A stretch of 64,000 nucleotides of DNA. It comes from Candidatus Uhrbacteria bacterium. Its GTDB lineage: Bacteria > Patescibacteriota > Patescibacteriia > UBA9934. The stretch spans positions 4,713 to 68,712 of the forward strand of contig CAINGB010000025.1 in NCBI GenBank assembly GCA_903848275.1, written 5' to 3'. The notes beneath the pieces are model-generated. The model had not been told where the DNA came from. It was given only the letters and a program-made list of their open reading frames with translations, and did not search any database. Position 1 is the first letter of the stretch, and each line of letters begins with the position of its first letter. The translations under genes were made by a program, and so were the position numbers. This document shows, piece after piece, positions 120 to 32,135 of the stretch.

Positions 120-3100
120 TTAAAGGGCGCAGTAGTTGAATTTGATGTTGCTGATGTTGACTTCGCCTACGCCAGTGTAGGTGACGCGAAGAGGTAGATC
201 CTGCTCAGCTGTTTGATCGCAGACAAAACCTTCCGGCCAAGGGAGAGCTACGCCAGTGCCTTCGGTCACGACACCTGTGGTCGAAGTTGTAGTTGCACCG
301 TTTGAAGTTAGGAGTTCAACCACGATACCGGTAAAGGACGAAACAATGGAGCTGAAAGCGTCGGCGATTTCGGTTGAAGCGGCGCCATTGTAAGCGTAGT
401 CAAGGTGATTAGTAGTGTTGGGAATAGTGCCATCTGACGTCAGTGCTGTGAAACGCGCGGCGGAATTACTCGACCAGCCAGCGATAGTACGAATGAGGGT
501 TGATGAACTGGAAGGTAGAGGAGCGATAGTGTAGAGCTCGTAGCCGGCAGCTTTGATTGAGTCGGCATTCGTTGAGGCACTTGAAGGCGAAGAGGCTCGG
601 CTGGCCTGAACTAGAACGATAGCCTTGCGGAAGTTACTCGTGACAGAGGATGTACCATCCAGAAGATGCTGAGCTAGGTTTAGACCGCTGGCAGTATCGG
701 GTTTACCGCTAGTTGTTGTATAGAGATCAATCAAGCCGGCGAGCGTACTTTCGTCAGCCGCGCTGTAGAAAGTACTGGTAGCGACTGGCCCGGAACGAGG
801 CATGTAAACTAGGCCGATGTGGACGTTGTCGTTCTGACGGAAGAGGTCGGAAATAGCTGTGCGCAGATCAGCCTTCACATCATCCAGACTGCTCGACATG
901 GCGGTCGTTAGATCCGTCACGAAGACCACGTAAATATCTGGTGAAGCGACATTATCGAGCGAGACGTCGGCGGTGAGGGTGGCGCCCAAGCGACAGGCTG
1001 GGAAGGTGATGGTAGCGGCGTTTGGGAGAATGGAAGTGGTAGTGGCGGAATAAGAGTAGAGGTCGACGCTAGAGGACGAGGCGGCGCCTGGTTGGTTGTC
1101 GGTCAAGAGCATGGCGTCGGAGAGGAAGGTGTCAGGACAAGTGGATCCACAATCATTGGCACAGACTGGGAACTGGCAGTCGTTGCTCGAGCAGTCGGCG
1201 TCAGAGAGACAAGTAGCACTGAGGCCGCGGATTGGATCCGAACTGTCACCGCCGTTGCACTGACCGACGGTTTGACAGACTTCGGTTTCATTAGCGGCAG
1301 CAATTCCATCGGAGTTAAGGTCGACAGAGATGCGCTGACCATTAGAAGTGCAGGTGCCAGTACCGACATAGGTATAACGGGTACTGGTCATGGTCGAGTC
1401 CCAAGCCGTAACCGGTGAAGAACCATAAATGGCTTCGACAGCGGGAACATAGGAGTTTGGTAAATCGTAAGCGTCGCAGTACTCGCTACCGTTGGCAACA
1501 CCGTCGCCGCAGAATTCGCCGGAGAGGCTGGTGTATTTGCAGCTGACGGAACAAGCCGTACAGGTGGATTCGTAAGCGCTGGTACAACCGGCACCGTTGT
1601 TTGCGCCTTCGTCACACTGCTCGGTGTCGAGTTCGAGGTAACCATCGCCGCAGACGTTAGTTTTACACTGATTGGTACAGGTGTCGCCGGAGTTGGTGTT
1701 GCCGTCGTCGCATTCTTCGCCAGTATCAACCACGCCGTCGCCACAATTATTGAGAGCTTTGCAAGTAATGCCTTCGTAACCTGTTGAGGCATCCGCCCAG
1801 TTGCAGGTTCCTCCATGCGCACCATCATCGTCACAAACACGGGTACGATAGGTTTGATAAGTGTTATTTGAGCAAGTGCCGCCAGCGCCACAGTCGTCAT
1901 CAGTAGTACAGGCCTGGCCGATGAGGGTGGCGTCGTCGCTAAGCTGACAAACGGTAGTTATCGGACAAGCGGTGAATGGTCCATGAAGCTGAACGGTTTC
2001 GTTACTAACGCCACATTTTGCTTGAGCTTTAGCACGAGCCGATCTGACACCAGCCTGACAATCGGCGTCCAATAAAGCTGGGTCACAAGACTGACCTTCC
2101 ATGGTACCGGAATTATTGTTACAGATAGTGCCGGCGTAGGAATCTGGTGCACCATCACAAACTTCCCCACTATCAATCACGCCGTCGCCGCAGTAGCTAG
2201 CTGGGCCTTGGCAGTCCCAAGCACAGGTGTTGTTTGGGTTGGAGTTGTAGTCACCGTTAAGGTAGCCAGATCCAGACGAGCCACCACAATAACGAGTTGA
2301 GCCATCGGTGGAATCAGTGCGGCCACCGTAAGGACGAGAGTCGGTGGAGGCAGAAGTTGAGGAACAGTCGCAGGCTTCGCTACCAGCTAAGCTGCCGTCA
2401 CCGCAGTAGAAGGCATCGACCGTGAGTTTACAAGTTGAGCCGCAGTAACCATAACGACCGTTCAGGGAGCCGTCATCACATTCTTCGCTGGCGGCATCGA
2501 TGAGACCGTTGCCACAAGTGGCGGCGACGCAGGTAGCGGAAGTGTCGGCGATGAAGGCTGAACAGGTGCTGTTGCAAACTTGAGAGATGGTACCGTCAAG
2601 AACAGTGGTGTCCGTGGTCGTGCTGCAAGAAGTGGTGGTGCCGCCGCGCTCGCCGATTTCGCAAACTTCGCTAGCGTTAACCACACCGTCACCGCAGTTA
2701 CCGGTGCTGCCGTAGATGGTAGTGCCGTCGCAGAAGACGGCGGTGGTGAAGCCAGCGGCCGTGCTGAGAGGACTCGAAACTTGGTAAGTGACGGCGTCGG
2801 TAGCACTGGTGTCATAGTCGTAGTACCAGGCACCGGTAGCATATTCGAGGTCAGCGTAGAGGGTGTAGCTTGCGCTGCCGGCTGCTTTGTAGTGGTAAAC
2901 GTGGCTACCAGCTGGACAGATGTACTGACCGTTGGCTTGGTTGACGCAAGTAGCGCTGTCGTAGCTAGCGAGAGGAGCCGTACCGCAACCGAGGAAGGCG
3001 TTAAGAGGATCGGCGACTAAACTGCTGTTGGCCAAAGCGCCACCCAGCAAGTCTGTCCAAGAACCCCAGACGCTAGCGCCGAGGCCACGAACGAAGGTGC

Positions 3101-6100
3101 CGGAACCGAGAGTTGGCACGTCGGAAGTAGCGTAGGTGGAGCTGTAAGTGCTGACTTCACTACTGATAGTGCGGAGGTCGGCCAAGCGTTTAACGTCGCG
3201 AGTTAATTTTATTTTGTTATTAGCACAAGTTTCGCCGGTAGCACAGTCGGCGTCGGCCGTACAAGTCTCAGTCGTGTAAGCTGAGCCGTCGGAACAGAGA
3301 GCGACGTCGCTGACGTTGGTGGCGAAAGAGAGGTTGGCGAGGAGCTGGTCGTAGATGGCGATGGTAGAGTCGCTGGCGCCTTCGTTGTAGGAAATGACGT
3401 AGATATTTGGGTAGAGAGTAGCGCCACTTTGGTTGACGGCGGCGATATAGGTGGTACGGCCGTCTTTAACAGCTTGGAAGCCGTCGGCGGTAGTGACAGA
3501 TGGACTGCCCGAGAAACCTTGAGCTGTGTACCAGGCCAGCGGGCTCAAGTAGTCGGAGTTGGTGACCACACGGTAACCAATAGCGTCGCCGCTGCCGTCA
3601 TTAACTTCGAAGAGATACTCCTTGAGGATATTGTCGGTCGTCGAGTAGTCGGCGGCGTTTTGGACGGTCAGAGCTGGATAGTCGTCCGTGGTGTCGGTGG
3701 TAGCTCCGGCGTCGCGGCAGTAGAAGTCCGAGAAGTTCATCCAACCAGAGCCAATGACAGCGCCGGTAGCCAAACTAGCGTCGTCGCTCCAAGGGAAGAC
3801 GGTGGTTTTGACGTCGGGCCAAGTATTTTCACAGAGGAAAGCGACAACTTTTTGCGTGCCAGCAATAGACGTACCTTCAGAAGTACCGAATTGATCGTAG
3901 TCGATGGTGGCGGTGGCCAATACATTAGCGTCGCCGTTCTTGCCGACAGCGGCGACCGCGGCAGTATCGGTAGCGCTAGGATCTGTGCTGCCGGTAGCAG
4001 TCACGATGGTAGCATTCATGTCGTCGGTCCAAGCCCAATTCCACGAGTAAACGCCGGACAAAGATTCGATTGGTTCGCTGGTCGTGCCGTTAAAAGTGTA
4101 AGCGGTGGCTGTAAAGTCGTGGCTTTCCGTAGCTTGTGAGAAGTAGTTTGGACTATCGGTATTGCCGTCTGTGACAGCTACACTGTCCAAAGTACAGATT
4201 TCTGAACCAGTTGAGAACTCTTGAGTGGCGGCGCCATGTACGTTATACATCGCTACCCCGTCAACAGAATGGACGCCTGGATGTGAAGCGTCAGTAACGT
4301 CGCTGTCAGTCATGACTTCTAGAGTGTAGTGAGCGTTGGCTAGCAAGGGGACGTCGTAGTGCATGGTGACTTTATAGCTAGTTACGTCAGGTGATGTTTC
4401 GATAGCGGTTTGTGAATAGGAAGCGACAGGCACAACACAATCGCCGGCAGCAGCCTCTGCTGAACGACCGGTGAAGAGCTGACGGACGTTAAGCCAGCTA
4501 CGAGAATACCAAGGAAGGTGCGAACTAACAGCCATGGCGAGCGAAGTGTGATCGCTAGGACAGAGGTGGCCAGGAACGGTAGTTAAGTCGAGCTTAGCAA
4601 ACATGAGCGGTTGTGCGGTAGCTGGCGCGGTGGGTGCAGTCAAGAACGTCGAGAGATCCATCTCGCTGCTAAAGAGACCGGATAGCTCGGCATTGCGGCA
4701 GACATTGCGTCCGGTTGGATGCAGGCTGACTGTTGGGCGAGCTAGGCAGCAGTTATTAACGCCGACACCAGTGGCTAATGGCAAATGACAGTCGAGATCG
4801 CTAACAGCTGAGCAGGAGAGAGAATAGGTGGTAGGTGTGGCTGAAGTAGTGATGCCAGAAACTGGTTCCGTGACGTACATGGAAGCAATGGCCAGCTTGG
4901 TAGCTGGGTCGACTTCCTGCGCGGCGTGGAGGTCAATGGCGGCCAATTGAGTGTCGTCAATACGGCTATCGCCACCAGAGGATTCACAAGTAGCGTATTC
5001 ACCAAGGCCGACCGTGCCATCACCGCAGAATGATGGAGTAGTGTAGGAAGTAGAGGAGCCAAGAAGGGTGCAAGATGATGAGCAATACTGTTGACCGTCG
5101 CAGTCTTCACCGGCACCAGTGGCAGCTTGAGTAGTGGCACCATCGCCGCACTTGCTGGCCCAGAAAGCACCACCAGCCGAACCTTCACGGAGACAGGAAG
5201 CGGAACAACCGTCACCACTGACACTATTGCCGTCGTCGCAAGTTTCGTAGTTTGGAGTAATGGTGCCGTCGCCGCAACGAGCGCCACCGATGTCAGCTGA
5301 ACTGACCGTGCCTTCGTTCAAGCAGAGTGAAGAACAACCGTCACCATTGGCCACGTTGCCGTCGTCGCAGTCTTCACCGCCCTGAGTAGGGTCATAAGCA
5401 ATGTCGTTGTTGCCGCAAGTGGTGTCGACAGAACGGGAACCTTCGTCAAGACAAGTGGCGGAACAACCGTCACCGTTCTTGGTGTTGCCGTCGTCGCAAT
5501 CTTCGCCGCTGCCGTCGCCAGCGCGATCGAGATGACCGTTGCCACAAACTGGCGCCCAGGTTGGACCACCGTTGCTACCTTCACGGAGACAGGATGATGA
5601 GCAGCCGTCGGCATTGGCAGTATTGCCGTCTTCACATTCTTCGCCGTGCAGAGTGTCGATGTGTCCGTCGCCACAAATTGCGGCGTAGGCCTGGCTGCCG
5701 CCTGGTGTACAAAGTGAGGTACAGCCGGCTGCAATGTCGTTCTTATTGGTGTCGATAGTAGCGCTTGGCAGCCAGTTGGCGACGTTAATGGTGCTGCTGT
5801 GGCCATTGTCGGTCCAGTTATGGAAGCTCCAGTTGTAACCGGTAGTGGCCAACAGCTGACCGGAGGTGGAACAGGCGTCAGGTACGCCGTAGGCAGAGAC
5901 TGCAAAGTTCTGACGCTCGCCAACCGTGGATGCCGTAGCGGCGTCCGGAGTAACGGCCAAACGGCTGACAGCACAAACGTCGGTGCCAGATTTCACGCCA
6001 AAGGTCCAGGAATAATCACCGGAGTAATTAGTGCGGGTTAAAGCAACACCACTTGGGGTAGCGACGTCACCCGAGATGACTACACGGTAGAAGGTACCAG

Positions 6101-9100
6101 GAGTGAGGTTGGTGCCAGAAGGTAAGGCAATGTCAGCTTGTTTGCAGTGAGTCGAGGCGTCGCTGGCGCAATTGGAGGCGCTCACTGAATAGGCGCGCAC
6201 TTCGTCGCCAACGCCGACGTTACAGAGTTCATTAGGACAAGCGTAGAGTTTAACGGCACCAGGAGCGACAAGCGTCGCGGCGTCCATGTCGGTATTGAAG
6301 GAGGCACCAATTAAACTGTTACGGCAAGCGCCGTCACAGCTTGGCCAGAAATCGGCGACGTAAGGATCCGTAAAGTTAATTGTGAGCACAGCGTTACCGT
6401 CGACATTGCTGGCTTGCTCTTGGGCGGTGACGTCCGTGGTGCCTTCGGCGTTGGCCTGAACGAGAGTGCAATATGAGTTACCGCTGGCACAGGCGTCACT
6501 CGAAGCAAGACCAGCGATACTTGGATCTACTGTCCAGTTGTAGGTGTACTTACTAGCATCGAGAACGACACAGCCGTCGCTTGGTAAGGCGTTGAAGGTG
6601 TCGGTGTTGCCTTGGGCGTCGATGGTGGCGGTAGCCGGCGAAACTGAGACATTATTAACAGCACAGGAAGCACCGGTACTGGAGACTAGGAAATGCCAAG
6701 AGTAATCGGCAGCCATAGCAATGCCGCCAGGGGAAGACTTGGCCGCGGTGCTGACCGTAACCTTGTAACTCGCAGCGTTAGCAAAAGGTGTATTTGGGAC
6801 CCAGGTGAAGGTGGTTGGCGAGGAGTCGGAAATAGTGAGAAGGCCGTCGGCCGTAATGTCCGTGCCGCCAGTGCAAGCGTCGCTGCTACACTTTTCGATT
6901 TTGACGGCGTCGTCGATAGTGCCGCGGTTCATGAGTTCCGTGAATTCAGCGTAAACTACAGCCTGAGGGCAGACGTCCGTAGTGAAAGTAGAGTTTGGTA
7001 CAGCGCTGATGCGACCACCAGGGGTGAGAGTACACTCAGTGACAATCTCTGGAGTTGTCGGAATTTTACCGGTTGAGAAATACCACTGATAGGCCGCTGG
7101 ACCTGGTGGGAGGGTGGTGGTAGTGGCGGCGCCGTAAGTGAAGTTGAGGGTGTTACTCGTGGCACCAGCCGCTGAGGTGATCTGCACTGGTCCGGAGGTA
7201 GCGCCTACTGGAGCCTTGACGGTGACAGCGGTGCTATTCCAGGCGCTGGTTAAAGTAGCTGGGATAGCGGAAAAGAAATCAACTGCGCCTGTACTTGAAC
7301 CGAGACTGCCGGTGATAGTAACCGTGTCACCGGCGGCGCCAGTGTTGGGCGAGATGGAACAGATGCCAGGGCTAGGCGCATTAGAAGTGATAGTGAAATC
7401 AGTAAGAGCCGAAGAGGCGCCGCTTTGGGCGACGAGATAAATGGCAAAATCAGTACCGGCGACAACCGGATTACCGTTTTGATAACTAGCCGGTACAATG
7501 ACAGTAACCTGAGTGTCAGACCAATAATCTGAGCAGGCGGCCGGGAAATCGACGCTAGCCAAGGCTTTGTAACCAGAAGTTTTGTTTTCGAAAAAGACTT
7601 GGCCGATATTGGCACCAAAGTTGCTGCCGGTTAAGGTAATGTAGTCGCCAATGGCAGCTGAGCTTGGGCTGATACTGGCGATGATTGGGACGGTTGTTGT
7701 AGCGGTCGCCAGGCTGTAGAGAATAGTATTGGAAGCCACGCCGCCCACAGTAACGCCGACTGGGTAGCTACCGTCACGAGCCGAAGGAGCCGTAACGTTA
7801 AGGGAACTATCGCTCCAGCCGCTGTAAGAACCGGCCGCGTTAGTACCGAAAGCAACAGTTGAGGTGCTTTGGGCGTCGCCGAAGTCTAAACCAGACAAAA
7901 CCACGGCGTCAGTTGGTGCGCCAGAGGCTGGCAACAGTGAACAAAGTTTAGGATGAACGACGTCGTTCACCACGAAGTCGTCGAAAATTTGACCGTAGTC
8001 GTCGTTACTCGAGTCACTGAGAGGCGTAGTAGCGCCAGTTGTGACCGTAATTGGGCCAGTCACAGCACCAACTGGAACCATCACAATCAAGCCGGTAGAA
8101 GACCAGGTGCTGCAAGATGGGCTGAGAGCGACGACTGTGCCGCCGTTAGCTGCGGTAAAGGTCACGGTTGGTTGTGTGTCGCCGAAGCCAACGCCGTCGA
8201 TAGTCACGAAGGTGCCAACAGCACCGGAGAGTGGCGAGATGCCAGTAATTTCTGGCAAGGCGGTACAAATGCCGTCCACACAGCTATCGCTTGGGCCGCA
8301 GTCGGCGTCAGAAGTACAGATGCTGCCAGAACAAGCGCCGCAGTAGTCGACGTTAGCGCTATCGCCACCACAGTTAAGGCCAGTTTCACCATGCGAGGTG
8401 TCGATAACGTCGTTAAAGCACCAAGGGCCACGGGCCGTAACATGAATGGTGTCGTCGCTCGTGTTGCCGGCGATGTCGGTGACGGTGGTGGCTAGCTTGT
8501 AGCTAGTGCTGTTGACGAGAGCTGTGGTATCCCAGTTAGTGGCGATGGTGGTGTCAGAAAGATCGGGGCCGGTGGCACCAACGGAGTCGAACTGCACGTC
8601 TTCTGCGCTAAAACTGGCGTCCGCCACTTGGCTGTCGTCTGTGGCATGGACTTGGACGAGGGCAGAAGAACCAGATTCCACGCTGCCGCTTGGGATAGTG
8701 ATGACGGCGGTTGGGTTAGCGACGTCGACGAGGTTGCCGGTGGTGAAGGAGGAAGTACAGCTGGTGGTGGTACAGACAAGCGTAGTACCGTTGGTGCTTT
8801 TTACGGCCGTGGAAACACTGACCGAGAAGGCAGTGTCTGCATCAAAACAGAAACGGGTGTCATTTGGTGATGGACAAGCGGCGTTAGGCCGGAAGCTGGC
8901 ACTATTACTGCTAACCGTGATGGTGCCGTCGATGACTGCGCCGCTAGCGGTGTTTTTGACGACTAGATTATTAGCAAGAGTAGCGGCGTCGAGAGTCTTG
9001 GAGAAAGTAACTTTAAGGAGGACGTTGCGGATGGCGACCGGGCCGTCTGGTGAATAGTCCGTCACCGAGAAGGCTGAGGTGCTGCTACTACCGCCGAATC

Positions 9101-9527
9101 CCCCGCCGCTGCCGTTACCACTGCTGGTGTTGCCGCCGCCAGCGCCAGTGGCGTTAAGCAACGCGGAAAGGATGAAGCTGGCAATCGCGAAGGAGAGCAG
9201 GATGATGGCCAGGCCAATGACGCCACGAATGAGGATTTTCTTGGCGCGTTCTAATTTTTCTTCGTTGCCGGCCGCGGTCATCCAAGTAAAGCCACCGTAG
9301 AGGACGATAAGTACTGAGAGAATACCGAGAACGCCAATGACCACGCGGATGATGCGAGCGATGATGATTTTAGGGTCTTCCGCCGTGAGGCCGGAGGCAG
9401 CGCCAACGTCGGCCAGGCTACTGGTGACTTGAGCTAGGAGGTGTGGAGCGTGCAAAAATACGCCAGCCGCAATGAGGCCAAGGACAGAAGGAAGAACGTA
9501 TTTAAGGCGGAACCAACGCATAGCCAA
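120..9527 (-). CDS. Giant (3135 aa) secreted or surface-anchored multidomain protein. N-terminal TM segment plus TrbC/VirB2-like pilin-type domain, then a Gly/Ser linker, Ig/IPT-like repeats, at least 12 Myxococcus-type Cys-rich repeats and a possible vWA-like C-terminus.
   Basis: One uninterrupted 9.4 kb ORF. N-terminus: hydrophobic segment, then ...LYGGFTWMTAAGNEEKLERAKKILIRGVIGLAIILLSFAIASFIL (pilin-like amphipathic/TM helix pair). Repeats CGDGHIDTLHGEECEDGNTANADGCSSSC, CGNGHLDRAG..EDCDDGNTKNGDGCSATC and others match the C-G-D-G-x-E-x-C-D-D-G-N-x-DGC-x-C pattern. IPT-like ITGISPLSGAVGTFVTIDGVGFG. C-terminal DIYVVFVTDLTTAMSS.. segment is vWA-like. Confidence 0.85.
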   Translation of the reverse strand: MAMRWFRLKYVLPSVLGLIAAGVFLHAPHLLAQVTSSLADVGAASGLTAEDPKIIIARIIRVVIGVLGILSVLIVLYGGFTWMTAAGNEEKLERAKKILIRGVIGLAIILLSFAIASFILSALLNATGAGGGNTSSGNGSGGGFGGSSSTSAFSVTDYSPDGPVAIRNVLLKVTFSKTLDAATLANNLVVKNTASGAVIDGTITVSSNSASFRPNAACPSPNDTRFCFDADTAFSVSVSTAVKSTNGTTLVCTTTSCTSSFTTGNLVDVANPTAVITIPSGSVESGSSALVQVHATDDSQVADASFSAEDVQFDSVGATGPDLSDTTIATNWDTTALVNSTSYKLATTVTDIAGNTSDDTIHVTARGPWCFNDVIDTSHGETGLNCGGDSANVDYCGACSGSICTSDADCGPSDSCVDGICTALPEITGISPLSGAVGTFVTIDGVGFGDTQPTVTFTAANGGTVVALSPSCSTWSSTGLIVMVPVGAVTGPITVTTGATTPLSDSSNDDYGQIFDDFVVNDVVHPKLCSLLPASGAPTDAVVLSGLDFGDAQSTSTVAFGTNAAGSYSGWSDSSLNVTAPSARDGSYPVGVTVGGVASNTILYSLATATTTVPIIASISPSSAAIGDYITLTGSNFGANIGQVFFENKTSGYKALASVDFPAACSDYWSDTQVTVIVPASYQNGNPVVAGTDFAIYLVAQSGASSALTDFTITSNAPSPGICSISPNTGAAGDTVTITGSLGSSTGAVDFFSAIPATLTSAWNSTAVTVKAPVGATSGPVQITSAAGATSNTLNFTYGAATTTTLPPGPAAYQWYFSTGKIPTTPEIVTECTLTPGGRISAVPNSTFTTDVCPQAVVYAEFTELMNRGTIDDAVKIEKCSSDACTGGTDITADGLLTISDSSPTTFTWVPNTPFANAASYKVTVSTAAKSSPGGIAMAADYSWHFLVSSTGASCAVNNVSVSPATATIDAQGNTDTFNALPSDGCVVLDASKYTYNWTVDPSIAGLASSDACASGNSYCTLVQANAEGTTDVTAQEQASNVDGNAVLTINFTDPYVADFWPSCDGACRNSLIGASFNTDMDAATLVAPGAVKLYACPNELCNVGVGDEVRAYSVSASNCASDASTHCKQADIALPSGTNLTPGTFYRVVISGDVATPSGVALTRTNYSGDYSWTFGVKSGTDVCAVSRLAVTPDAATASTVGERQNFAVSAYGVPDACSTSGQLLATTGYNWSFHNWTDNGHSSTINVANWLPSATIDTNKNDIAAGCTSLCTPGGSQAYAAICGDGHIDTLHGEECEDGNTANADGCSSSCLREGSNGGPTWAPVCGNGHLDRAGDGSGEDCDDGNTKNGDGCSATCLDEGSRSVDTTCGNNDIAYDPTQGGEDCDDGNVANGDGCSSLCLNEGTVSSADIGGARCGDGTITPNYETCDDGNSVSGDGCSASCLREGSAGGAFWASKCGDGATTQAATGAGEDCDGQQYCSSSCTLLGSSTSYTTPSFCGDGTVGLGEYATCESSGGDSRIDDTQLAAIDLHAAQEVDPATKLAIASMYVTEPVSGITTSATPTTYSLSCSAVSDLDCHLPLATGVGVNNCCLARPTVSLHPTGRNVCRNAELSGLFSSEMDLSTFLTAPTAPATAQPLMFAKLDLTTVPGHLCPSDHTSLAMAVSSHLPWYSRSWLNVRQLFTGRSAEAAAGDCVVPVASYSQTAIETSPDVTSYKVTMHYDVPLLANAHYTLEVMTDSDVTDASHPGVHSVDGVAMYNVHGAATQEFSTGSEICTLDSVAVTDGNTDSPNYFSQATESHDFTATAYTFNGTTSEPIESLSGVYSWNWAWTDDMNATIVTATGSTDPSATDTAAVAAVGKNGDANVLATATIDYDQFGTSEGTSIAGTQKVVAFLCENTWPDVKTTVFPWSDDASLATGAVIGSGWMNFSDFYCRDAGATTDTTDDYPALTVQNAADYSTTDNILKEYLFEVNDGSGDAIGYRVVTNSDYLSPLAWYTAQGFSGSPSVTTADGFQAVKDGRTTYIAAVNQSGATLYPNIYVISYNEGASDSTIAIYDQLLANLSFATNVSDVALCSDGSAYTTETCTADADCATGETCANNKIKLTRDVKRLADLRTISSEVSTYSSTYATSDVPTLGSGTFVRGLGASVWGSWTDLLGGALANSSLVADPLNAFLGCGTAPLASYDSATCVNQANGQYICPAGSHVYHYKAAGSASYTLYADLEYATGAWYYDYDTSATDAVTYQVSSPLSTAAGFTTAVFCDGTTIYGSTGNCGDGVVNASEVCEIGERGGTTTSCSTTTDTTVLDGTISQVCNSTCSAFIADTSATCVAATCGNGLIDAASEECDDGSLNGRYGYCGSTCKLTVDAFYCGDGSLAGSEACDCSSTSASTDSRPYGGRTDSTDGSTRYCGGSSGSGYLNGDYNSNPNNTCAWDCQGPASYCGDGVIDSGEVCDGAPDSYAGTICNNNSGTMEGQSCDPALLDADCQAGVRSARAKAQAKCGVSNETVQLHGPFTACPITTVCQLSDDATLIGQACTTDDDCGAGGTCSNNTYQTYRTRVCDDDGAHGGTCNWADASTGYEGITCKALNNCGDGVVDTGEECDDGNTNSGDTCTNQCKTNVCGDGYLELDTEQCDEGANNGAGCTSAYESTCTACSVSCKYTSLSGEFCGDGVANGSEYCDAYDLPNSYVPAVEAIYGSSPVTAWDSTMTSTRYTYVGTGTCTSNGQRISVDLNSDGIAAANETEVCQTVGQCNGGDSSDPIRGLSATCLSDADCSSNDCQFPVCANDCGSTCPDTFLSDAMLLTDNQPGAASSSSVDLYSYSATTTSILPNAATITFPACRLGATLTADVSLDNVASPDIYVVFVTDLTTAMSSSLDDVKADLRTAISDLFRQNDNVHIGLVYMPRSGPVATSTFYSAADESTLAGLIDLYTTTSGKPDTASGLNLAQHLLDGTSSVTSNFRKAIVLVQASRASSPSSASTNADSIKAAGYELYTIAPLPSSSSTLIRTIAGWSSNSAARFTALTSDGTIPNTTNHLDYAYNGAASTEIADAFSSIVSSFTGIVVELLTSNGATTTSTTGVVTEGTGVALPWPEGFVCDQTAEQDLPLRVTYTGVGEVNISNIKFNYCAL

Positions 9528-16373: not shown

Positions 16374-16450
16374 TGGTGGACATTGGTGGGCTCGAACCAC
16401 CGACCTCTGTCGTGTGAGGACAGCGCTCTAACCAACTGAGCTAAATATCC
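16374..16450 (-). tRNA. tRNA-Val (anticodon CAC)
   Basis: Cloverleaf GGATATT/aatgtcc acceptor stem, anticodon stem ctgtc/gacag with loop cTCACAc, T-loop GGTTCGAGCC, and an encoded CCA. A hairpin plus T7 terminator lies downstream (16330-16373). Confidence 0.85.
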
Positions 16451-23922: not shown

Positions 23923-26205
23923 ATGTCTAAACTTGTCATTGTCGAGTCCCCTACTAAAGCTAAAACTATTACCAAATTTTTGGGGAAAGAATTCACAATT
24001 CTTTCTTCTTTTGGTCATATTCGTGACTTGCCAAAGAAGTCCACCGCGGTCGACGTCGAGCATGGCTTTACGCCAACTTACGAAGTGCCCGTGGATAAGA
24101 AGGCTAAGGTGACGGCGCTTAAACAAGCGGCCAAGGGTGTAGATGAAGTCTACCTCGCAACCGACGAAGACCGTGAAGGAGAAGCGATTGCCTGGCATAT
24201 TGCTGAGGTGCTTAAGCTCGACGTCGCCACAGCCAAGCGCATTACTTTCCACGAAATTACCAAGGCCGCGATTGTGAACGCGGTGGAGCATCCAAGGACC
24301 ATCGACATGAACATGGTCAACGCGCAGCAGACGCGCCGCATTTTGGACCGTTTGGTTGGTTATGAATTGTCGCCGTTATTGTGGAAGAAGGTGCAGCGCG
24401 GACTTTCGGCTGGTCGCGTGCAGAGCGTGGCTGTGCGTTTGGTAGTTGAACGCGAACTGGAGCGCAACGCTTTTAAGAGCGATGAATACTGGACGATCGA
24501 AGCGACGTTTGAGAAAGACGGCGCGGTGCTGGAAGCTAAGTTGAACAGTATTGACGGCAGGAAGCTGGAGAAGCTCGATATTAAAAATGAGGCCGATGCC
24601 AAGAAGATTGTCGACGACGTGACTGGTGTCAGCTTTGTCGTTGATAAGATTGAGTTAAAAGATGCTTCACGTAAACCGCCGATTCCTTTGACGACGTCGA
24701 GTTTGCAGCAGGATGCATACAACCGTTTGGGCATGAGTGCTAAGCAGACCATGACCTTGGCGCAGAAGCTGTACGAAACGGGTAAGATTACTTACATGCG
24801 TACTGACTCCCAGAATTTGGCGGAGCAGTTTACGAGTGCCACACAAGATTATTTGCAGACGACTTTCGGTGCTGAATACGCCAAAGGTGCAGTTAAGTAT
24901 GCCACTAAGAGTAAGGGAGCGCAGGAAGCGCACGAGGCTATTCGTCCAACTGATGTGACCGCGTCACCTGAGAGCTTGCAAGCGAGTCTCGAAAGTGGCG
25001 AATGGAAACTGTATGATTTGATTTGGCGCCGCACAGTGGCCAGCCAGATGCCAAGCGCCAAGATGCGTCGGACCGCCGTCGATCTACTCGGCAACAAACA
25101 TATTTTCCGCGTGAACGGCAGCACAGTAGTGTTCCCAGGTTTCATGAAAGTATGGCAAGCAAGTGAAGACAAGCTCTTGCCGGTAATGGCGCAAGGTGAC
25201 GTGATTGGTGAGGCCAAGGAGATAAAGCCGGAGCAGCACTTCACCGAACCAGCTGCCCGCTACAGCGATGCGACTTTGATTAAGGCCTTAGAAGAATACG
25301 GCATTGGTCGCCCTTCTACTTACGCCCCAACTTTGACGACGATTATTGACCGCGGCTACGTGCTGCGCGACGATAATAAGAAGCTCTTCCCGTCTGACAT
25401 TGCGATCATCGTGACGGATTTGCTGAAGACGCATTTCCCGAATATTGTCGGCTACGATTTTACCGCCGACATGGAGTTGAAGCTCGACGAAGTGGCTGAG
25501 GGTAAGCAAGACTGGCAGAAGATTTTGGGCGATTTTTATGGCCCGTTCCATGCACAAATTACCGAGAAGACCGGTGATTTAAGCCGGGCTGACGTCATGA
25601 AGGAACGTAGCCTGGGCGTCGACCCTAAAGACGGCCTTGAGATTATTGTACGAACTGGGCGCTTTGGTCCGTACGTGCAACGCGGCATTGTGAGTGATGA
25701 GAATCCGAAACCACCACGCGCCTCGCTGACCAAAGATCAACTGATGGATACGATTACCCTCGACCAGGCCTTGAAATTGTTGCTGCTCCCCCGCTTGGTC
25801 GGTAAGCACACGAATGGCGAAGATATTATTGCCAACCTAGGCCGCTTTGGTCCGTACTTGAAGTGCGGCACGGTGAACATTACTTTGCCGCCGGAAGATC
25901 ACCCGGCGGAAGTGACGCTCGAACGGGCGATTCAGATTTGTACAGAAGGCGTCGCTAAAAAGGCCGCGGCCATGAAGCCACTAGCCGAACTCGGTACTGA
26001 CCCGACGAGTAAAGGTGAGATTGTTATTCGTAGTGGACGCTTTGGTGACTATATTACGGACGGCAAGACCAACGTGACGGTGCCGAAGAAAATTACCTGG
26101 CAAGACGTGACACCGGAAATGGCGATCGAGATGCTAGTCAAGAAGCGAGCGTCGCCCAAGAAGGCTTGGGGGAAGAGGAAGAAGAAGAGTGATGATAATG
26201 ACTAA
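23923..26205 (+). CDS. topA: DNA topoisomerase I with C-terminal GRFGPY repeat tail
   Basis: MSKLVIVESPTKAKTI... Toprim plus Top1A core. Four C-terminal RFGPY/RFGDY repeats. Confidence 0.9.
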   Translation: MSKLVIVESPTKAKTITKFLGKEFTILSSFGHIRDLPKKSTAVDVEHGFTPTYEVPVDKKAKVTALKQAAKGVDEVYLATDEDREGEAIAWHIAEVLKLDVATAKRITFHEITKAAIVNAVEHPRTIDMNMVNAQQTRRILDRLVGYELSPLLWKKVQRGLSAGRVQSVAVRLVVERELERNAFKSDEYWTIEATFEKDGAVLEAKLNSIDGRKLEKLDIKNEADAKKIVDDVTGVSFVVDKIELKDASRKPPIPLTTSSLQQDAYNRLGMSAKQTMTLAQKLYETGKITYMRTDSQNLAEQFTSATQDYLQTTFGAEYAKGAVKYATKSKGAQEAHEAIRPTDVTASPESLQASLESGEWKLYDLIWRRTVASQMPSAKMRRTAVDLLGNKHIFRVNGSTVVFPGFMKVWQASEDKLLPVMAQGDVIGEAKEIKPEQHFTEPAARYSDATLIKALEEYGIGRPSTYAPTLTTIIDRGYVLRDDNKKLFPSDIAIIVTDLLKTHFPNIVGYDFTADMELKLDEVAEGKQDWQKILGDFYGPFHAQITEKTGDLSRADVMKERSLGVDPKDGLEIIVRTGRFGPYVQRGIVSDENPKPPRASLTKDQLMDTITLDQALKLLLLPRLVGKHTNGEDIIANLGRFGPYLKCGTVNITLPPEDHPAEVTLERAIQICTEGVAKKAAAMKPLAELGTDPTSKGEIVIRSGRFGDYITDGKTNVTVPKKITWQDVTPEMAIEMLVKKRASPKKAWGKRKKKSDDND

Positions 26206-26228
26206 CTAATCTTAACGTTATATTTTCT

Positions 26229-26414
26229 ATGTCAAATGTATTAGCGGCATTACTAGCTAATAAATTAGCCAAAAATCCTGATAAATTATTGAAAACTGTT
26301 AAGCCGCTAGGCAAAGTGTTGCTGAAGATATTCGTAATTTTTATTATCTTTGATGTGGTATTTTTTATATTACTTTTTCTCTGGGCAATTATAACTAACC
26401 ACCTTGGTAATTAA
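26229..26414 (+). CDS. Possible small hydrophobic membrane peptide (61 aa), AT-rich
   Basis: ...KIFVIFIIFDVVFFILLFLWAIITNHLGN, a single TM helix. Weak. Confidence 0.25.
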   Translation: MSNVLAALLANKLAKNPDKLLKTVKPLGKVLLKIFVIFIIFDVVFFILLFLWAIITNHLGN

Positions 26415-26442
26415 CTCGGAAAAAAATGATACAATACTCTCA

Positions 26443-26490
26443 GCGGTGTGAGTGAAAACTTCGTTCGGCTAGCCAAGCCGAAGACATCGC
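26443..26490 (+). ncRNA. Small structured RNA, copy 1: P1 helix enclosing a GAAA-tetraloop hairpin and a uucggc...gccgaa hairpin. An extended -10 (tgatacaat) promoter sits directly upstream.
   Basis: P1 gcggtgt/acatcgc. Inner ttcggctagccaagccgaa. Extended -10 at 26427-26435 puts the TSS at the P1 start. Confidence 0.45.
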
Positions 26491-26616
26491 TCAAATAATT
26501 TGCTATAATGCGAGTGTCTCTTGGTTGAGGTAATAACTGAGAGGGTATTATTTCCGAGAGTCATCCTCCGAGAGGCGGGTGACTATTGTTTTATTGGGAG
26601 ATACGAGTCAACGTTT

Positions 26617-26645
26617 TTGACATAGGGACTGATCTAGTTTATAGT
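26617..26645 (+). promoter_or_regulatory. Consensus sigma70 promoter (TTGACA-17-TATAGT) driving sRNA copy 2
   Basis: ttgaca tagggactgatctagtt tatagt. The predicted TSS (~26652) coincides with the first base of P1. Confidence 0.6.
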
Positions 26646-26652
26646 TTATTTG

Positions 26653-26738
26653 CGCTTGTGGGCGAAAGCCCCGTTCGGCCAATATCATAAGCCGAAGACA
26701 AGCGTAAAACAACCCTTTAATGGGGTGTTTTTTTGTTT
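26653..26738 (+). ncRNA. Small structured RNA, copy 2: P1 cgcttgt/acaagcg enclosing gggcGAAAgccc and ttcggcc..gccgaa hairpins, followed by a hairpin plus T7 terminator
   Basis: Perfect 7-bp P1. GNRA hairpin. The second hairpin uses the same ttcggc/gccgaa stem as copy 1. Then ccctttaatggggtgttttttt. Confidence 0.5.
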
Positions 26739-27228
26739 AAGAGTCCAATAGCCATCCTCCACCGATCCTTTTAACGGTTTTCTGACTATTCGTCTTAAGC
26801 TCCTTCCAAGCAGGAGATACACTCCAAAAATGAAAATTGCCATCCCCAACTCTGCGTACTACAACATTAATCCTACGCTTTTTGTCGAGATTAATAATAG
26901 CAGCAAAGGCATAGTAACGAACTGATTTCTCTTGCCGATGACCACTAACATCTGGCTTGCCTACCGTCTGCACAGACTCGCGATGTTCCTGAATAGTGGT
27001 AGTTTTCTTAATTATTAAAACGGCGTCTTCCAAACAGAGAAGTTTATTTTTCTGAACTACCTTAGTTCGTTCCGTTCGAGTGCCATCAAACTGCAAGTGA
27101 TGGAATCCGTCTGAGCTGAAATGTACCATTTGATTAAGAGCTGGGCAATGAACTTTGATAACTGATTTATAAAATTTCTCTGCTTTTGCAAAGATCTTTT
27201 TAAACTCAAATAAATCGCTATTACTCAT
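26737..27228 (-). CDS. Hypothetical protein (163 aa), low GC
   Basis: AT-rich ORF with no recognisable motif. Confidence 0.45.
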   Translation of the reverse strand: MSNSDLFEFKKIFAKAEKFYKSVIKVHCPALNQMVHFSSDGFHHLQFDGTRTERTKVVQKNKLLCLEDAVLIIKKTTTIQEHRESVQTVGKPDVSGHRQEKSVRYYAFAAIINLDKKRRINVVVRRVGDGNFHFWSVSPAWKELKTNSQKTVKRIGGGWLLDS

Positions 27229-31714: not shown

Positions 31715-31800
31715 TGGTGCCGCGGGAGGGACTCGAACCCTCAATCCCTTACGGGAAACGGATTTTGAGTCCGTCGCGTATACCATTCCGCCACCGCGGC
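31715..31800 (-). tRNA. tRNA-Leu (anticodon CAA), class II with a long variable arm, CCA encoded
   Basis: Reverse complement GCCGCGGTGGCGGAATGG...cggaCTCAAAAtccg...long variable arm...GGTTCGAGTCC..CCGCGGCACCA. Confidence 0.85.
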
Positions 31801-31859
31801 CGGATAGTTCAACGCGGGAAAATAGTAACAAACTGGGGCGATTTAGGCAACCCCTCGGC

Positions 31860-31888
31860 TTGTCAAAAACACTTGTATTTGTTATAGT
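31860..31888 (+). promoter_or_regulatory. Sigma70-like promoter (TTGTCA-17-TATAGT) for elongator tRNA-Met
   Basis: ttgtca aaaacacttgtatttgt tatagt, about 18 nt before the tRNA 5' end. Confidence 0.55.
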
Positions 31889-31906
31889 GCCGTCGTTTCC
31901 TACCCT

Positions 31907-31983
31907 AGCTGGGTAGCTCAGTCGGTTAGAGCGAAGGACTCATAAGCCTTAGGTCGCGGGTTCGATTCCCGCCCCAGCTACCA
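31907..31983 (+). tRNA. Elongator tRNA with CAU anticodon (Met, or Ile2 if lysidinylated). No 3 G-C pairs in the anticodon stem.
   Basis: agctggg acceptor, ctCATaa anticodon loop, GGTTCGATTCC T-loop, CCA encoded. Followed by hairpin cccccactgttcagtgcgaacttggggg plus T-run (31987-32027). Confidence 0.8.
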
Positions 31984-32058
31984 AATGTCCCCCACTGTTC
32001 AGTGCGAACTTGGGGGATTTTTGTTTGACCTTTTTTGTTAAATAGGCTATTATTCCGG

Positions 32059-32135
32059 CGCAGGGTAGAGCAGCCTGGCAGCTCGTCGGGCTCATAACCC
32101 GAAGGTCGTCGGTTCAAATCCGACCCCTGCAACCA
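32059..32135 (+). tRNA. Initiator tRNA-fMet (CAU)
   Basis: C1xA72 mismatch in the acceptor stem, three consecutive G-C pairs (ggg/ccc) closing the anticodon stem, CAU anticodon, and CCA encoded. A hairpin plus T-run follows (32140-32175). Confidence 0.85.

What the first reader, a model, noticed from the sequence alone, without database searches (positions are those of the whole stretch)
26427..26738. Two paralogous ~50-nt structured small RNAs, each transcribed from its own promoter with the TSS at the first base of helix P1
Copy 1 (26443-26490) and copy 2 (26653-26704) share the same architecture: a 7-bp P1, an internal GAAA-tetraloop hairpin, and a second hairpin with an identical uucggc...gccgaa stem, forming a three-way junction. 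Copy 2 has a consensus TTGACA-17-TATAGT promoter whose predicted +1 is the first P1 nucleotide, and a hairpin plus T7 terminator. Copy 1 has a TGnTACAAT extended -10. No ORF is driven by either copy, and the next gene is convergent. They look like trans-acting sRNAs or an RNA family I cannot place in a known class.
Basis: seen in the sequence. Interest (0 to 1): 0.6.

Follow-up and report, generated by a model that had tools for sequence, protein, structure and literature searches.

The report
Structured small RNA paired with protein
The two small RNAs are real and belong to an undescribed family of about 90-base structured RNAs in Patescibacteria (tiny, mostly uncultured bacteria); the family almost always sits tail-to-tail with one uncharacterised small basic protein gene, and I think the pair most likely works as an RNA-antitoxin and protein-toxin (phage-defence) module.

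Summary
Copy 1 (26441-26493) and copy 2 (26651-26707) fold into the same three-way junction. Each has its own promoter, with the predicted start at the first P1 base. Rfam 15 has no match.

- All 12 loci fetched through homologues of that protein carry the RNA just 3' of the gene.
- Of about 105 metagenomic loci fetched through the RNA alone, 80 carry the protein: 76 convergent, sharing one terminator, and 4 in tandem.
- About 17 RNAs are solo. Three more copies lie on viral contigs without the protein, one heading a 16-tRNA array.

In 102 sequences 98% of cells pair, and P1 covaries at 7 of 8 pairs.

The protein family has more than 1,200 clusters at 50% identity. Its members are basic and unannotated. 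It is a remote relative of the LPD3 domain and weakly resembles BECR-fold RNase toxins.

Copy 2 is the cognate RNA and copy 1 is a diverged orphan paralogue.

Best reading: a type III-like toxin-antitoxin or abortive-infection module. I put about 0.85 on a functional RNA-protein partnership and about 0.45 on the toxin/antitoxin mechanism. This is a new variant of a known kind.

The parts
26427..26435 (+). Extended -10 promoter element (TGaTACAAT) of RNA copy 1; no good -35
   Evidence: Read from the sequence. The -10 lies at the family-typical distance from P1.
26441..26493 (+). RNA copy 1, a diverged orphan paralogue. P1 is 26442-26448 with 26485-26491. P2 is 26450-26453 with 26458-26461, loop GAAA. 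P3 is 26464-26469 with 26477-26482. The junction bases are U26449, C26462, G26463 and GA 26483-26484.
   Evidence: Covariance-model hit of 56.6 bits, E = 2.5e-13. Fold z = -2.96. P1 and P2 are kept by compensatory changes relative to every other member.
26517..26592 (+). Atypical 3' tail of copy 1: hairpin 26517-26544, then a G+C-rich hairpin 26560-26583 followed by a T-rich run. This is the probable terminator of copy 1.
   Evidence: Terminator-like site and fold. No other family member has this tail; their terminators end a median of 33 nt after P1.
26617..26645 (+). Promoter of RNA copy 2: TTGACA, 17-nt spacer, TATAGT
   Evidence: 11 of 12 consensus matches. Homologues keep the same geometry.
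26651..26707 (+). RNA copy 2, the canonical family member. P1 is 26652-26658 with 26699-26705. P2 is 26660-26663 with 26668-26671, loop GAAA. P3a is 26674-26679 with 26691-26696. The distal P3 loop is 26680-26690. J31 is GA 26697-26698.
   Evidence: Covariance-model hit of 78.8 bits. Fold z = -4.48. Covariation is shown in A3 and A4.
26712..26733 (.). Hairpin plus T7 terminator of copy 2. Read on the minus strand, it is also the only terminator available to the partner protein gene, so it is shared and bidirectional.
   Evidence: The gap from the RNA core to the protein stop codon is 29 nt here. Its median is 33 nt in 74 convergent pairs, which equals the terminator length.
26737..27228 (-). 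Partner gene: a 163-aa basic protein of an uncharacterised Patescibacteria family. It is a remote LPD3-like domain with a weak resemblance to BECR-fold RNase toxins.
   Evidence: Linkage to the RNA is shown.

Best explanation
The two elements are genes for a compact, tertiary-structured small RNA of about 90 nt. Each RNA has a three-way junction made of:
- P1, 8-9 bp;
- P2, 4 bp capped by a GNRA tetraloop;
- P3, carrying a conserved A-rich internal loop and a variable tip.

Each RNA is made from its own sigma-70-type promoter, starts at the first P1 base, and ends at an intrinsic terminator.

The RNA is the dedicated partner of the small basic protein encoded tail-to-tail with copy 2 (26737-27228, minus strand).

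I propose that the RNA binds this protein and keeps it inactive, and that the protein is an RNase-like toxin. The pair would then act as a type III-like toxin-antitoxin or abortive-infection module that moves between Patescibacteria genomes. Copy 2 is the cognate antitoxin. Copy 1 is an extra, diverged orphan antitoxin. Some phages carry their own copy of the RNA as a decoy.

Shown: the RNA family, its structure, its transcription unit, and its genetic linkage to the protein.

Inferred: direct RNA-protein binding, toxicity and RNase activity of the protein, neutralisation by the RNA, and the decoy role in phages.

I put about 0.85 on a functional RNA-protein partnership and about 0.45 on the toxin/antitoxin mechanism.
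For: Linkage:
- All 12 loci fetched through 12 different protein homologues, at 38-69% identity, carry the RNA convergent just 3' of the gene.
- Of about 105 non-redundant loci fetched by an RNA-only pattern, 80 carry the protein.
- Orientation can change: 76 pairs are convergent and 4 are tandem with a second promoter. Adjacency is kept. This argues for a trans partnership rather than a cis or antisense effect.
- L135 holds two protein+RNA modules in tandem.
- No third gene is conserved next to the pair.

Asymmetry expected of an antitoxin and a toxin:
- The RNA occurs without the protein in about 17 loci, in window copy 1, and on viral contigs L246-L248.
- The protein was never seen without the RNA.

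Phage copies:
- L248 is a phage contig with a large terminase subunit, E = 2.7e-85. It has a full RNA with its own promoter and no protein.
- In L247 the RNA heads a 16-tRNA array.
- Phage-encoded tRNAs have been proposed to counter tRNA-cleaving host defences (PMC10264068).
- A phage-encoded antitoxin mimic that counters a toxin-antitoxin defence (DarTG) has been reported (PMC11481870).

Protein:
- It is basic, with a median pI of 9.7.
- The AlphaFold2 model has pLDDT 86.
- It is remotely related to LPD3, a domain of phage and plasmid conflict proteins. LPD3 matched 8 of 28 members. Distant members reach 26.0 bits against a cut-off of 27 (PMC5512222).

Context: a large serine recombinase lies directly upstream in at least 6 loci, and restriction-modification or AbiL-like genes lie nearby in L250-L252.

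Precedent: a structured, non-repeat RNA neutralises the AbiF toxin by direct binding (PMC12373285).
Against: - There are no expression, binding or toxicity data.
- There are no convincing PADLOC or PHROG matches.
- The RNA is a single unit, not the tandem repeats of known type III antitoxins.
- Most immediate neighbours are housekeeping genes, not defence genes.
- Only three viral contigs carry the RNA. A broader viral pattern scan added none.
- The protein-without-RNA test rests on only 12 loci.
- P2 and its GNAA loop were fixed by the pattern used for the metagenome scan. Their conservation in that set is therefore not independent evidence.
Confidence: 0.45

Rival explanations
1. This is a non-toxic ribonucleoprotein. 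The RNA would be a scaffold, cofactor, substrate or activity switch for the LPD3-like protein, for example an RNA-modifying or RNA-processing enzyme, or an RNA-regulated effector. No poison/antidote logic would be involved.
For: The same linkage data apply. The strongly conserved junction and A-rich internal loop (YAA...UAA in more than 84% of members) look like a specific recognition surface. The protein is basic. Many modules sit among housekeeping genes.
Against: The patchy, context-free distribution, the tandem duplications, the solo RNAs and the phage-borne RNA copies without the protein fit a selfish or defence module better than a housekeeping RNP. LPD3 relatives occur in conflict proteins (PMC5512222).
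Confidence: 0.27
2. This is the first reader's view: independent trans-acting, base-pairing sRNAs. The neighbouring protein gene would be incidental cargo. For example, the RNA gene could serve as an integration site for serine-recombinase elements that carry the protein at their end.
For: The RNAs have their own promoter and terminator. About 17 solo RNAs exist. A recombinase lies directly upstream of the protein in at least 6 loci, giving the order recombinase, protein, then convergent RNA. This resembles tRNA-targeting islands.
Against: Most linked loci have no recombinase. The four tandem-orientation loci and the double module in L135 do not fit an attachment-site model. The most conserved bases lie in helices and junctions, not in an accessible seed. 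Pairing to the partner's start region is no better than for non-cognate or shuffled sequences: -20.6, -20.3 and -20.1 kcal/mol.
Confidence: 0.1
3. This is type I-like antisense control. The convergent RNA and the protein mRNA overlap at the shared terminator, and that duplex would control mRNA stability or read-through.
For: In 74 convergent pairs the spacer between the RNA core and the stop codon has a median of 33 nt. That equals the terminator length, so the 3' ends must overlap.
Against: Four loci have the tandem order RNA, terminator, promoter, protein, where antisense overlap is impossible. The overlap excludes the conserved structured core. The protein is a 163-aa soluble basic protein, not a small hydrophobic peptide. 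Solo and phage copies have nothing to overlap.
Confidence: 0.08
4. The RNA is a ligand-sensing aptamer (an orphan riboswitch) or a small ribozyme. Its neighbour would be only loosely related.
For: It is a compact three-way junction with a GNRA loop and an internal loop (CCUAAG/UAAGG) that resembles the 11-nt tetraloop receptor. Such RNAs can build binding pockets (the receptor resemblance is from my own knowledge).
Against: In 76 of 80 linked loci no gene lies downstream in cis, and a terminator follows at once with no alternative pairing. There is no Rfam match to any riboswitch or ribozyme. Tetraloop identity does not covary with the internal loop.
Confidence: 0.05

Closest known systems
Type III toxin-antitoxin systems (ToxIN, CptIN, TenpIN)
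   Same: A non-coding RNA gene is tightly linked to a small protein gene. The logic is likewise RNA-binds-protein. The distribution is sporadic and linked to mobile elements. Phage-borne copies of the RNA parallel the phage pseudo-ToxI escape (my own knowledge).
   Different: Here the RNA is a single structured unit, not tandem 34-36-nt repeats. It has its own promoter and is usually convergent with the protein gene, not an upstream co-transcribed array. The protein has no detectable similarity to ToxN, AbiQ, CptN or TenpN. Toxicity has not been tested.
AbiF / RCd22 (abiF RNA motif) of Clostridioides difficile (PMC12373285)
   Same: A structured, non-repeat ncRNA neutralises an adjacent toxic protein by direct binding and acts in trans. 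This is the nearest mechanistic precedent.
   Different: The RNA family is different: there is no Rfam abiF hit. The protein family is different, since Abi_2 is not detected. RCd22 lies upstream on the same strand and also acts in cis.
LPD3 domain (Pfam PF18798) of phage and plasmid polyvalent proteins (PMC5512222)
   Same: Weak but near full-length profile matches. The window protein scores 16.6 bits over profile positions 4-114 of 114. LPD3 matched 8 of 28 family members. Distant relatives reach 26.0 bits.
   Different: All scores fall below Pfam's cut-off of 27 bits. Here the domain is a stand-alone chromosomal protein. LPD3 itself has no known function and no known RNA partner.
BECR-fold RNase toxins (CdiA-CT tRNases, RelE, BrnT, RegB)

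Membership tests
Any Rfam 15 RNA family | Covariance-model score at or above the family's gathering threshold | tested here: not met
   The only hits at gathering threshold in the window are four tRNAs elsewhere. At E <= 10 on 26150-26800 there are only sub-threshold chance hits, the best being Phe_leader at 22.3 bits against 55.
Type III toxin-antitoxin | RNA gene genetically linked to the protein toxin gene | tested here: met
   12 of 12 protein-first loci and 80 of about 97 informative RNA-first loci.
Type III toxin-antitoxin | Antitoxin is an array of tandem direct repeats upstream of the toxin gene, on the same strand, separated from it by a terminator | tested here: not met
   Each module has a single unit. 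76 of 80 are convergent. Only 4 have the order RNA, terminator, protein.
Type III toxin-antitoxin | Toxin belongs to the ToxN/AbiQ, CptN or TenpN families | tested here: not met
   No such Pfam or PADLOC match.
Type III toxin-antitoxin | Protein is toxic (an endoRNase), and the RNA neutralises it by direct binding | not testable with these tools
   Only indirect hints: weak BECR-like fold matches, a basic pI, and solo RNAs but no solo proteins.
Type I toxin-antitoxin | Small hydrophobic toxin peptide, with an antisense RNA pairing to its mRNA | tested here: not met
   The protein is a 163-aa soluble basic protein. Overlap is limited to the shared terminator. There is no cognate-specific duplex with the start region. 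Tandem loci exist.
abiF motif RNA / Abi_2 system | RNA matches the abiF motif and the protein matches Abi_2 | tested here: not met
   No Rfam hit and no Abi_2 Pfam hit.
Pfam LPD3 (PF18798) | Whole-protein score at or above the gathering cut-off of 27 bits | tested here: inconclusive
   The window protein scores 16.6 bits, E = 0.009, over nearly the whole profile. LPD3 matched 8 of 28 members. Distant relatives P0268 and P0168 score 26.0 and 23.3 bits. This indicates remote homology, not formal membership.
BECR-fold RNases | Significant structural superposition on a solved BECR toxin | tested here: inconclusive
Riboswitch / cis-regulatory leader | Lies in the 5' UTR of the regulated gene, with an expression platform | tested here: not met
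   The RNA has its own promoter and an immediate terminator, and the next gene is convergent in 76 of 80 loci.
Independently transcribed bacterial sRNA gene | Conserved promoter at a fixed distance, plus an intrinsic terminator | tested here: met
   The -10 lies 5 nt before alignment column 1 in 73 of 97 homologues. 67 of 97 promoters match at least 9 of 12 consensus positions. A terminator is present in 94 of 100. No transcript data are available.

The most novel reading that the evidence does not exclude
This is a previously unrecognised class of RNA-protein defence or addiction module, widespread in the Candidate Phyla Radiation. A single, independently transcribed, tertiary-folded RNA would act as a decoy antitoxin, possibly mimicking a tRNA acceptor stem, for a new LPD3-type tRNase toxin. 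Phages would counter it by carrying their own copy of the RNA, in one case within a tRNA array. If so, this would also give LPD3 domains in phage and plasmid polyvalent proteins their first proposed function.
Probability: 0.25. Interest if true: 0.85.

Novelty: new variant of a known kind. Interest (0 to 1): 0.7.

Why it matters
Patescibacteria have tiny genomes, and almost nothing is known about their non-coding RNAs or their defence and addiction systems.

This analysis links an unannotated RNA family to a large unannotated protein family. The protein family has more than 1,200 clusters at 50% identity. The result is a concrete two-gene module that can be tested.

If the toxin/antitoxin reading holds, three things follow:
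- RNA antitoxins would extend beyond repeat arrays to a single folded RNA with its own promoter.
- A functional handle on LPD3 domains would exist for the first time.
- There would be a second example of phages carrying RNA antitoxin mimics.

Even if the mechanism is different, the RNA is a strong candidate for a new Rfam family. It is compact, has clear covariation, and suits structural study.

Tried and rejected
- **Rfam.** I ran it at gathering threshold and at permissive E-values. It found nothing relevant.
- **Strict genome pattern scan.** It returned 111 loci. Only 2 (L001, L007) were true homologues. The rest were chance inverted repeats in high-GC coding DNA.
- **Relic of a second protein gene after copy 1.** The local alignment score was 22, against 17.6 +/- 2.3 for shuffles with a maximum of 27. 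No relic.
- **Pairing between the RNA and the partner's start region.** Cognate pairs (-20.6 kcal/mol) were no better than non-cognate (-20.3) or shuffled (-20.1).
- **Protein annotation.**
  - Foldseek against PDB and against BFVD gave nothing at E <= 0.001.
  - NCBIfam gave no match.
  - PADLOC and PHROGs gave only isolated weak hits.
  - The PDB sequence and profile searches gave nothing useful.
  - The afdb50 library was unavailable.
- **A conserved third gene.** Among 142 immediate neighbours the commonest families were Recombinase (5) and NUDIX (4). The rest were mostly housekeeping singletons.
- **Covariation between the tetraloop and the receptor-like loop.** None was found.
- **The protein in viral contigs.** None was found.
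- **A broader viral pattern anchored on P3.** It returned 71 loci: L248, already known, and 70 new ones, none of which matched the covariance model.
- **Literature searches.** I found no prior description.
- **Source organism.** I could not name it.

Full report
**Observation**

- Copy 1 (26443-26490) and copy 2 (26653-26704) each fold, as their minimum-energy and centroid structure, into a three-way junction. It has a 7-bp P1, a 4-bp P2 capped by GAAA, and a P3 hairpin.
- The fold z-scores are -2.96 and -4.48.
- The shared core CGTTCGGC...GCCGAAGA occurs exactly twice in the 64-kb window, against zero expected by chance.
- The two copies differ in P1 (GCGGUGU/ACAUCGC against CGCUUGU/ACAAGCG) and in P2 (GAGU/ACUU against GGGC/GCCC) by compensatory changes. 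P3 and the junction bases are identical.
- Copy 2 has TTGACA-17-TATAGT (26617-26645) and a hairpin plus T7 terminator (26712-26733).
- Copy 1 has TGaTACAAT (26427-26435).
- Rfam 15 gives no match, either at gathering thresholds over the whole window or at E <= 10 over 26150-26800.

**Genomic setting**

The intergenic region lies between topA (23923-26205, plus strand) with a 61-aa hydrophobic ORF (26229-26414), and a convergent 163-aa ORF (26737-27228, minus strand). That ORF has no Pfam match above threshold. It is followed by a short relA/spoT homologue, parB and parA. This is chromosomal DNA. All named homologues of the 163-aa protein come from Patescibacteria. I could not name the source organism.

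**The key finding: the convergent ORF is the RNA's partner**

A strict pattern scan of 185,579 species genomes returned 111 loci. Nearly all were chance inverted repeats in high-GC coding DNA. Two were true homologues, one from a Patescibacteria MAG (L001) and one from a Falkowbacteria MAG (L007). In both, the RNA has its own promoter and terminator and is convergent with a homologue of the 163-aa ORF.

I then went protein-first. I fetched contigs for 12 different homologues at 38-69% identity. Every one carries the RNA on the opposite strand just 3' of the gene.

I also went RNA-first. About 105 of these are distinct true RNAs:
- 80 have the protein adjacent. Of these, 76 are convergent and 4 are tandem.
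- About 17 lack the protein despite room on the contig.
- 8 end too soon to tell.

The four tandem loci read promoter, RNA, terminator, second promoter, protein.

In 74 convergent pairs the gap between the RNA core and the stop codon has a median of 33 nt. That equals the distance to the end of the terminator's T-run, so the two genes share one bidirectional terminator.

L135 carries two protein+RNA modules in tandem. No third gene is conserved. Among 142 immediate neighbours the commonest Pfam families were Recombinase (5) and NUDIX (4), and most others were housekeeping singletons.

**RNA structure**

In 13 sequences not selected by the P2 pattern, 94% of cells pair, and 8 of 18 pairs show changes on both sides.

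In the 102-sequence alignment:
- 98.3% of cells pair, against 93.3% in shuffles and 19-49% for slid registers.
- P1 covaries at 7 of 8 pairs. One pair, for example, reads UA 58, CG 31, UG 11.
- One P3 pair switches between A-U (74) and G-C (19).

Viral homologues have entirely different P1 sequences around the same core: GAAACAC/GUGUUUC and GAGGU/ACCUC.

The P3 tip is a variable mini-hairpin whose pairs covary by eye (GG/CC, CC/GG, CA/UG, GUCC/GGAC, GCUC/GAGC). It is flanked by a conserved A-rich internal loop: YAA on the 5' side in 96% of members, and UAA on the 3' side in 84%.

One caveat applies. P2 and its GNAA loop were fixed by the metagenome pattern. Independent support for P2 comes only from window copy 1 and from the protein-first set, where the loops are GAAA, GUAA and GCAA.

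The common CCUAAG/UAAGG arrangement resembles the 11-nt GAAA-tetraloop receptor. This is my own recollection, not a test. Loop identity does not covary with it.

**Transcription unit**

Across homologues a -10 element sits at a fixed distance, with 5 nt before alignment column 1, in 73 of 97. That puts the expected start at the first P1 purine. A terminator follows in 94 of 100, ending a median of 33 nt after P1. No transcript data are available.

**The two window copies are not equivalent**

Only this window, among the loci examined, has an extra RNA with no extra protein. Copy 2 scores 78.8 bits and is the canonical partner. Copy 1 scores 56.6 bits. It has a divergent P1, P2 and P3 loop, and a longer 3' tail with two hairpins. 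I found no relic of a second protein gene next to copy 1.

**The protein**

- The family is large: 1,069 clusters at 90% identity and 1,213 at 50% identity with E <= 0.001. Members are mostly stand-alone proteins of 140-165 aa, annotated only as hypothetical.
- It is basic, with a median pI of 9.7.
- Invariant residues include G41, F42, H44, R54, K56, K62, Q80, E81, R83 and F134-W135-S136.
- Pfam LPD3 matches weakly but over nearly its full length. The window protein scores 16.6 bits. LPD3 matched 8 of 28 members. Distant relatives reach 26.0 bits against a cut-off of 27.
- LPD3 is a domain of unknown function in phage and plasmid polyvalent conflict proteins (PMC5512222).
- The AlphaFold2 model has pLDDT 86 and pTM 0.77.
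- Foldseek against PDB and BFVD, and scans of PADLOC, PHROGs and NCBIfam, add nothing.

**Distribution**

Apart from the partner protein, the neighbouring genes differ from locus to locus.
- A large serine recombinase lies directly upstream of the protein in at least 6 loci.
- Restriction-modification or AbiL-like genes flank it in L250-L252.
- Three viral contigs carry the RNA without the protein.
  - L248 has a large terminase subunit and a full RNA with its own promoter.
  - In L247 the RNA heads a 16-tRNA array on the same strand.
  - L246 holds a minimal version.
- A broader viral scan found no more copies.

**Mechanism**

What is shown: a conserved, structured, independently transcribed RNA that is genetically coupled to one protein family. 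Coupling survives a change of orientation. The RNA is often found alone, and the protein was never found alone.

What I infer: the RNA binds the protein. The most likely logic is antidote and poison. The protein would be an RNase-like toxin held inactive by the RNA, as in type III toxin-antitoxin systems and in the AbiF/RCd22 pair, where a structured non-repeat RNA neutralises the toxin by direct binding (PMC12373285). Solo RNAs, including window copy 1, would be orphan antitoxins. Phage copies would be decoys. The tRNA-array context fits the proposal that phage tRNAs counter tRNA-cleaving defences (PMC10264068).

I put about 0.85 on a functional RNA-protein partnership and about 0.45 on the toxin/antitoxin mechanism.

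Rivals:
- A non-toxic RNP (0.27).
- Independent base-pairing sRNAs with incidental or integration-site linkage (0.10).
- Antisense control through the shared terminator (0.08). The tandem loci and the solo and phage copies contradict this.
- An aptamer or ribozyme (0.05).

**Comparison with known systems**

It works most like type III toxin-antitoxin systems and AbiF/RCd22, but it is a member of neither. The RNA is not a repeat array and matches no Rfam family. The protein is unrelated to ToxN, CptN, TenpN or Abi_2. The usual layout is convergent with a shared terminator. The protein is a remote, sub-threshold relative of LPD3 and only weakly BECR-like.

**Verdict**

The feature is real. The RNA family is not in Rfam. 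The RNA-protein linkage has, as far as my literature searches show, not been described. I rate it a new variant of a known kind, with interest 0.7.

Main limitations:
- There are no experimental data.
- The fold evidence for the protein is weak.
- The protein-never-alone claim rests on 12 loci.
- The metagenome set is biased at P2 by the search pattern.

Noticed in passing
window 26229-26414 (+): A 61-aa ORF with a hydrophobic C-terminal helix lies between topA and RNA copy 1. It has no Pfam or NCBIfam match. I did not check whether it is conserved or whether it relates to the RNAs.
   Followed up: partly
window 26481-26592 (+): A promoter-like site (AAGACA, 17-nt spacer, TGcTATAAT) overlaps the 3' end of copy 1. 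Two hairpins follow (26517-26544 and 26560-26583), then a T-rich run. No other family member has such a tail. It could be copy 1's terminator region or a separate short transcript.
   Followed up: partly
L247 113-1715 (IMG/VR contig, 43.6 kb): An RNA homologue (50.6 bits, with a completely different P1 sequence) sits at the head of an array of 16 tRNA genes on the same strand. No partner protein is present on the stretch held.
   Followed up: partly
L248 489-549 (IMG/VR contig with a large terminase subunit at 4155-5768): A full-length RNA homologue (67.9 bits) with its own promoter sits in a phage contig that lacks the partner protein.
   Followed up: partly
L135 1869-3315; L129 945-2368: L135 carries two complete protein+RNA modules in tandem, and the second RNA is degenerate in P2. 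L129 carries two protein paralogues but only one RNA.
   Followed up: partly
L112 4744-5247, L114 4903-5310, L116 3579-3989: A NUDIX hydrolase gene lies next to the module in several lineages, in different arrangements. It accounts for 4 of 142 immediate neighbours. This may be chance, or a link to 5'-end or nucleotide metabolism.
   Followed up: partly
L119 2393-3919, L250 1316-2968, and five metagenome loci: A large serine recombinase lies directly upstream of the partner protein gene. This suggests that some modules sit at the edge of integrative elements. L250-L252 also carry restriction-modification or AAA_21+RloB (AbiL-like) genes nearby.
   Followed up: partly
window 120-9527 (-): A very long ORF of 3,135 aa occupies the first 9.5 kb of the window. 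I did not examine it.
   Followed up: no
window 31718-32132 and 16377-16450: Four tRNA genes. Three are clustered at 31.7-32.1 kb on both strands, and one of these has a long variable arm. They are unrelated to the finding.
   Followed up: no
P0161 (388 aa): One distant family member is recorded as a fusion: an N-terminal nucleotidyl-transferase domain with the LPD3-like domain at residues 245-379. It could be a real fusion or a gene-calling artefact.
   Followed up: no
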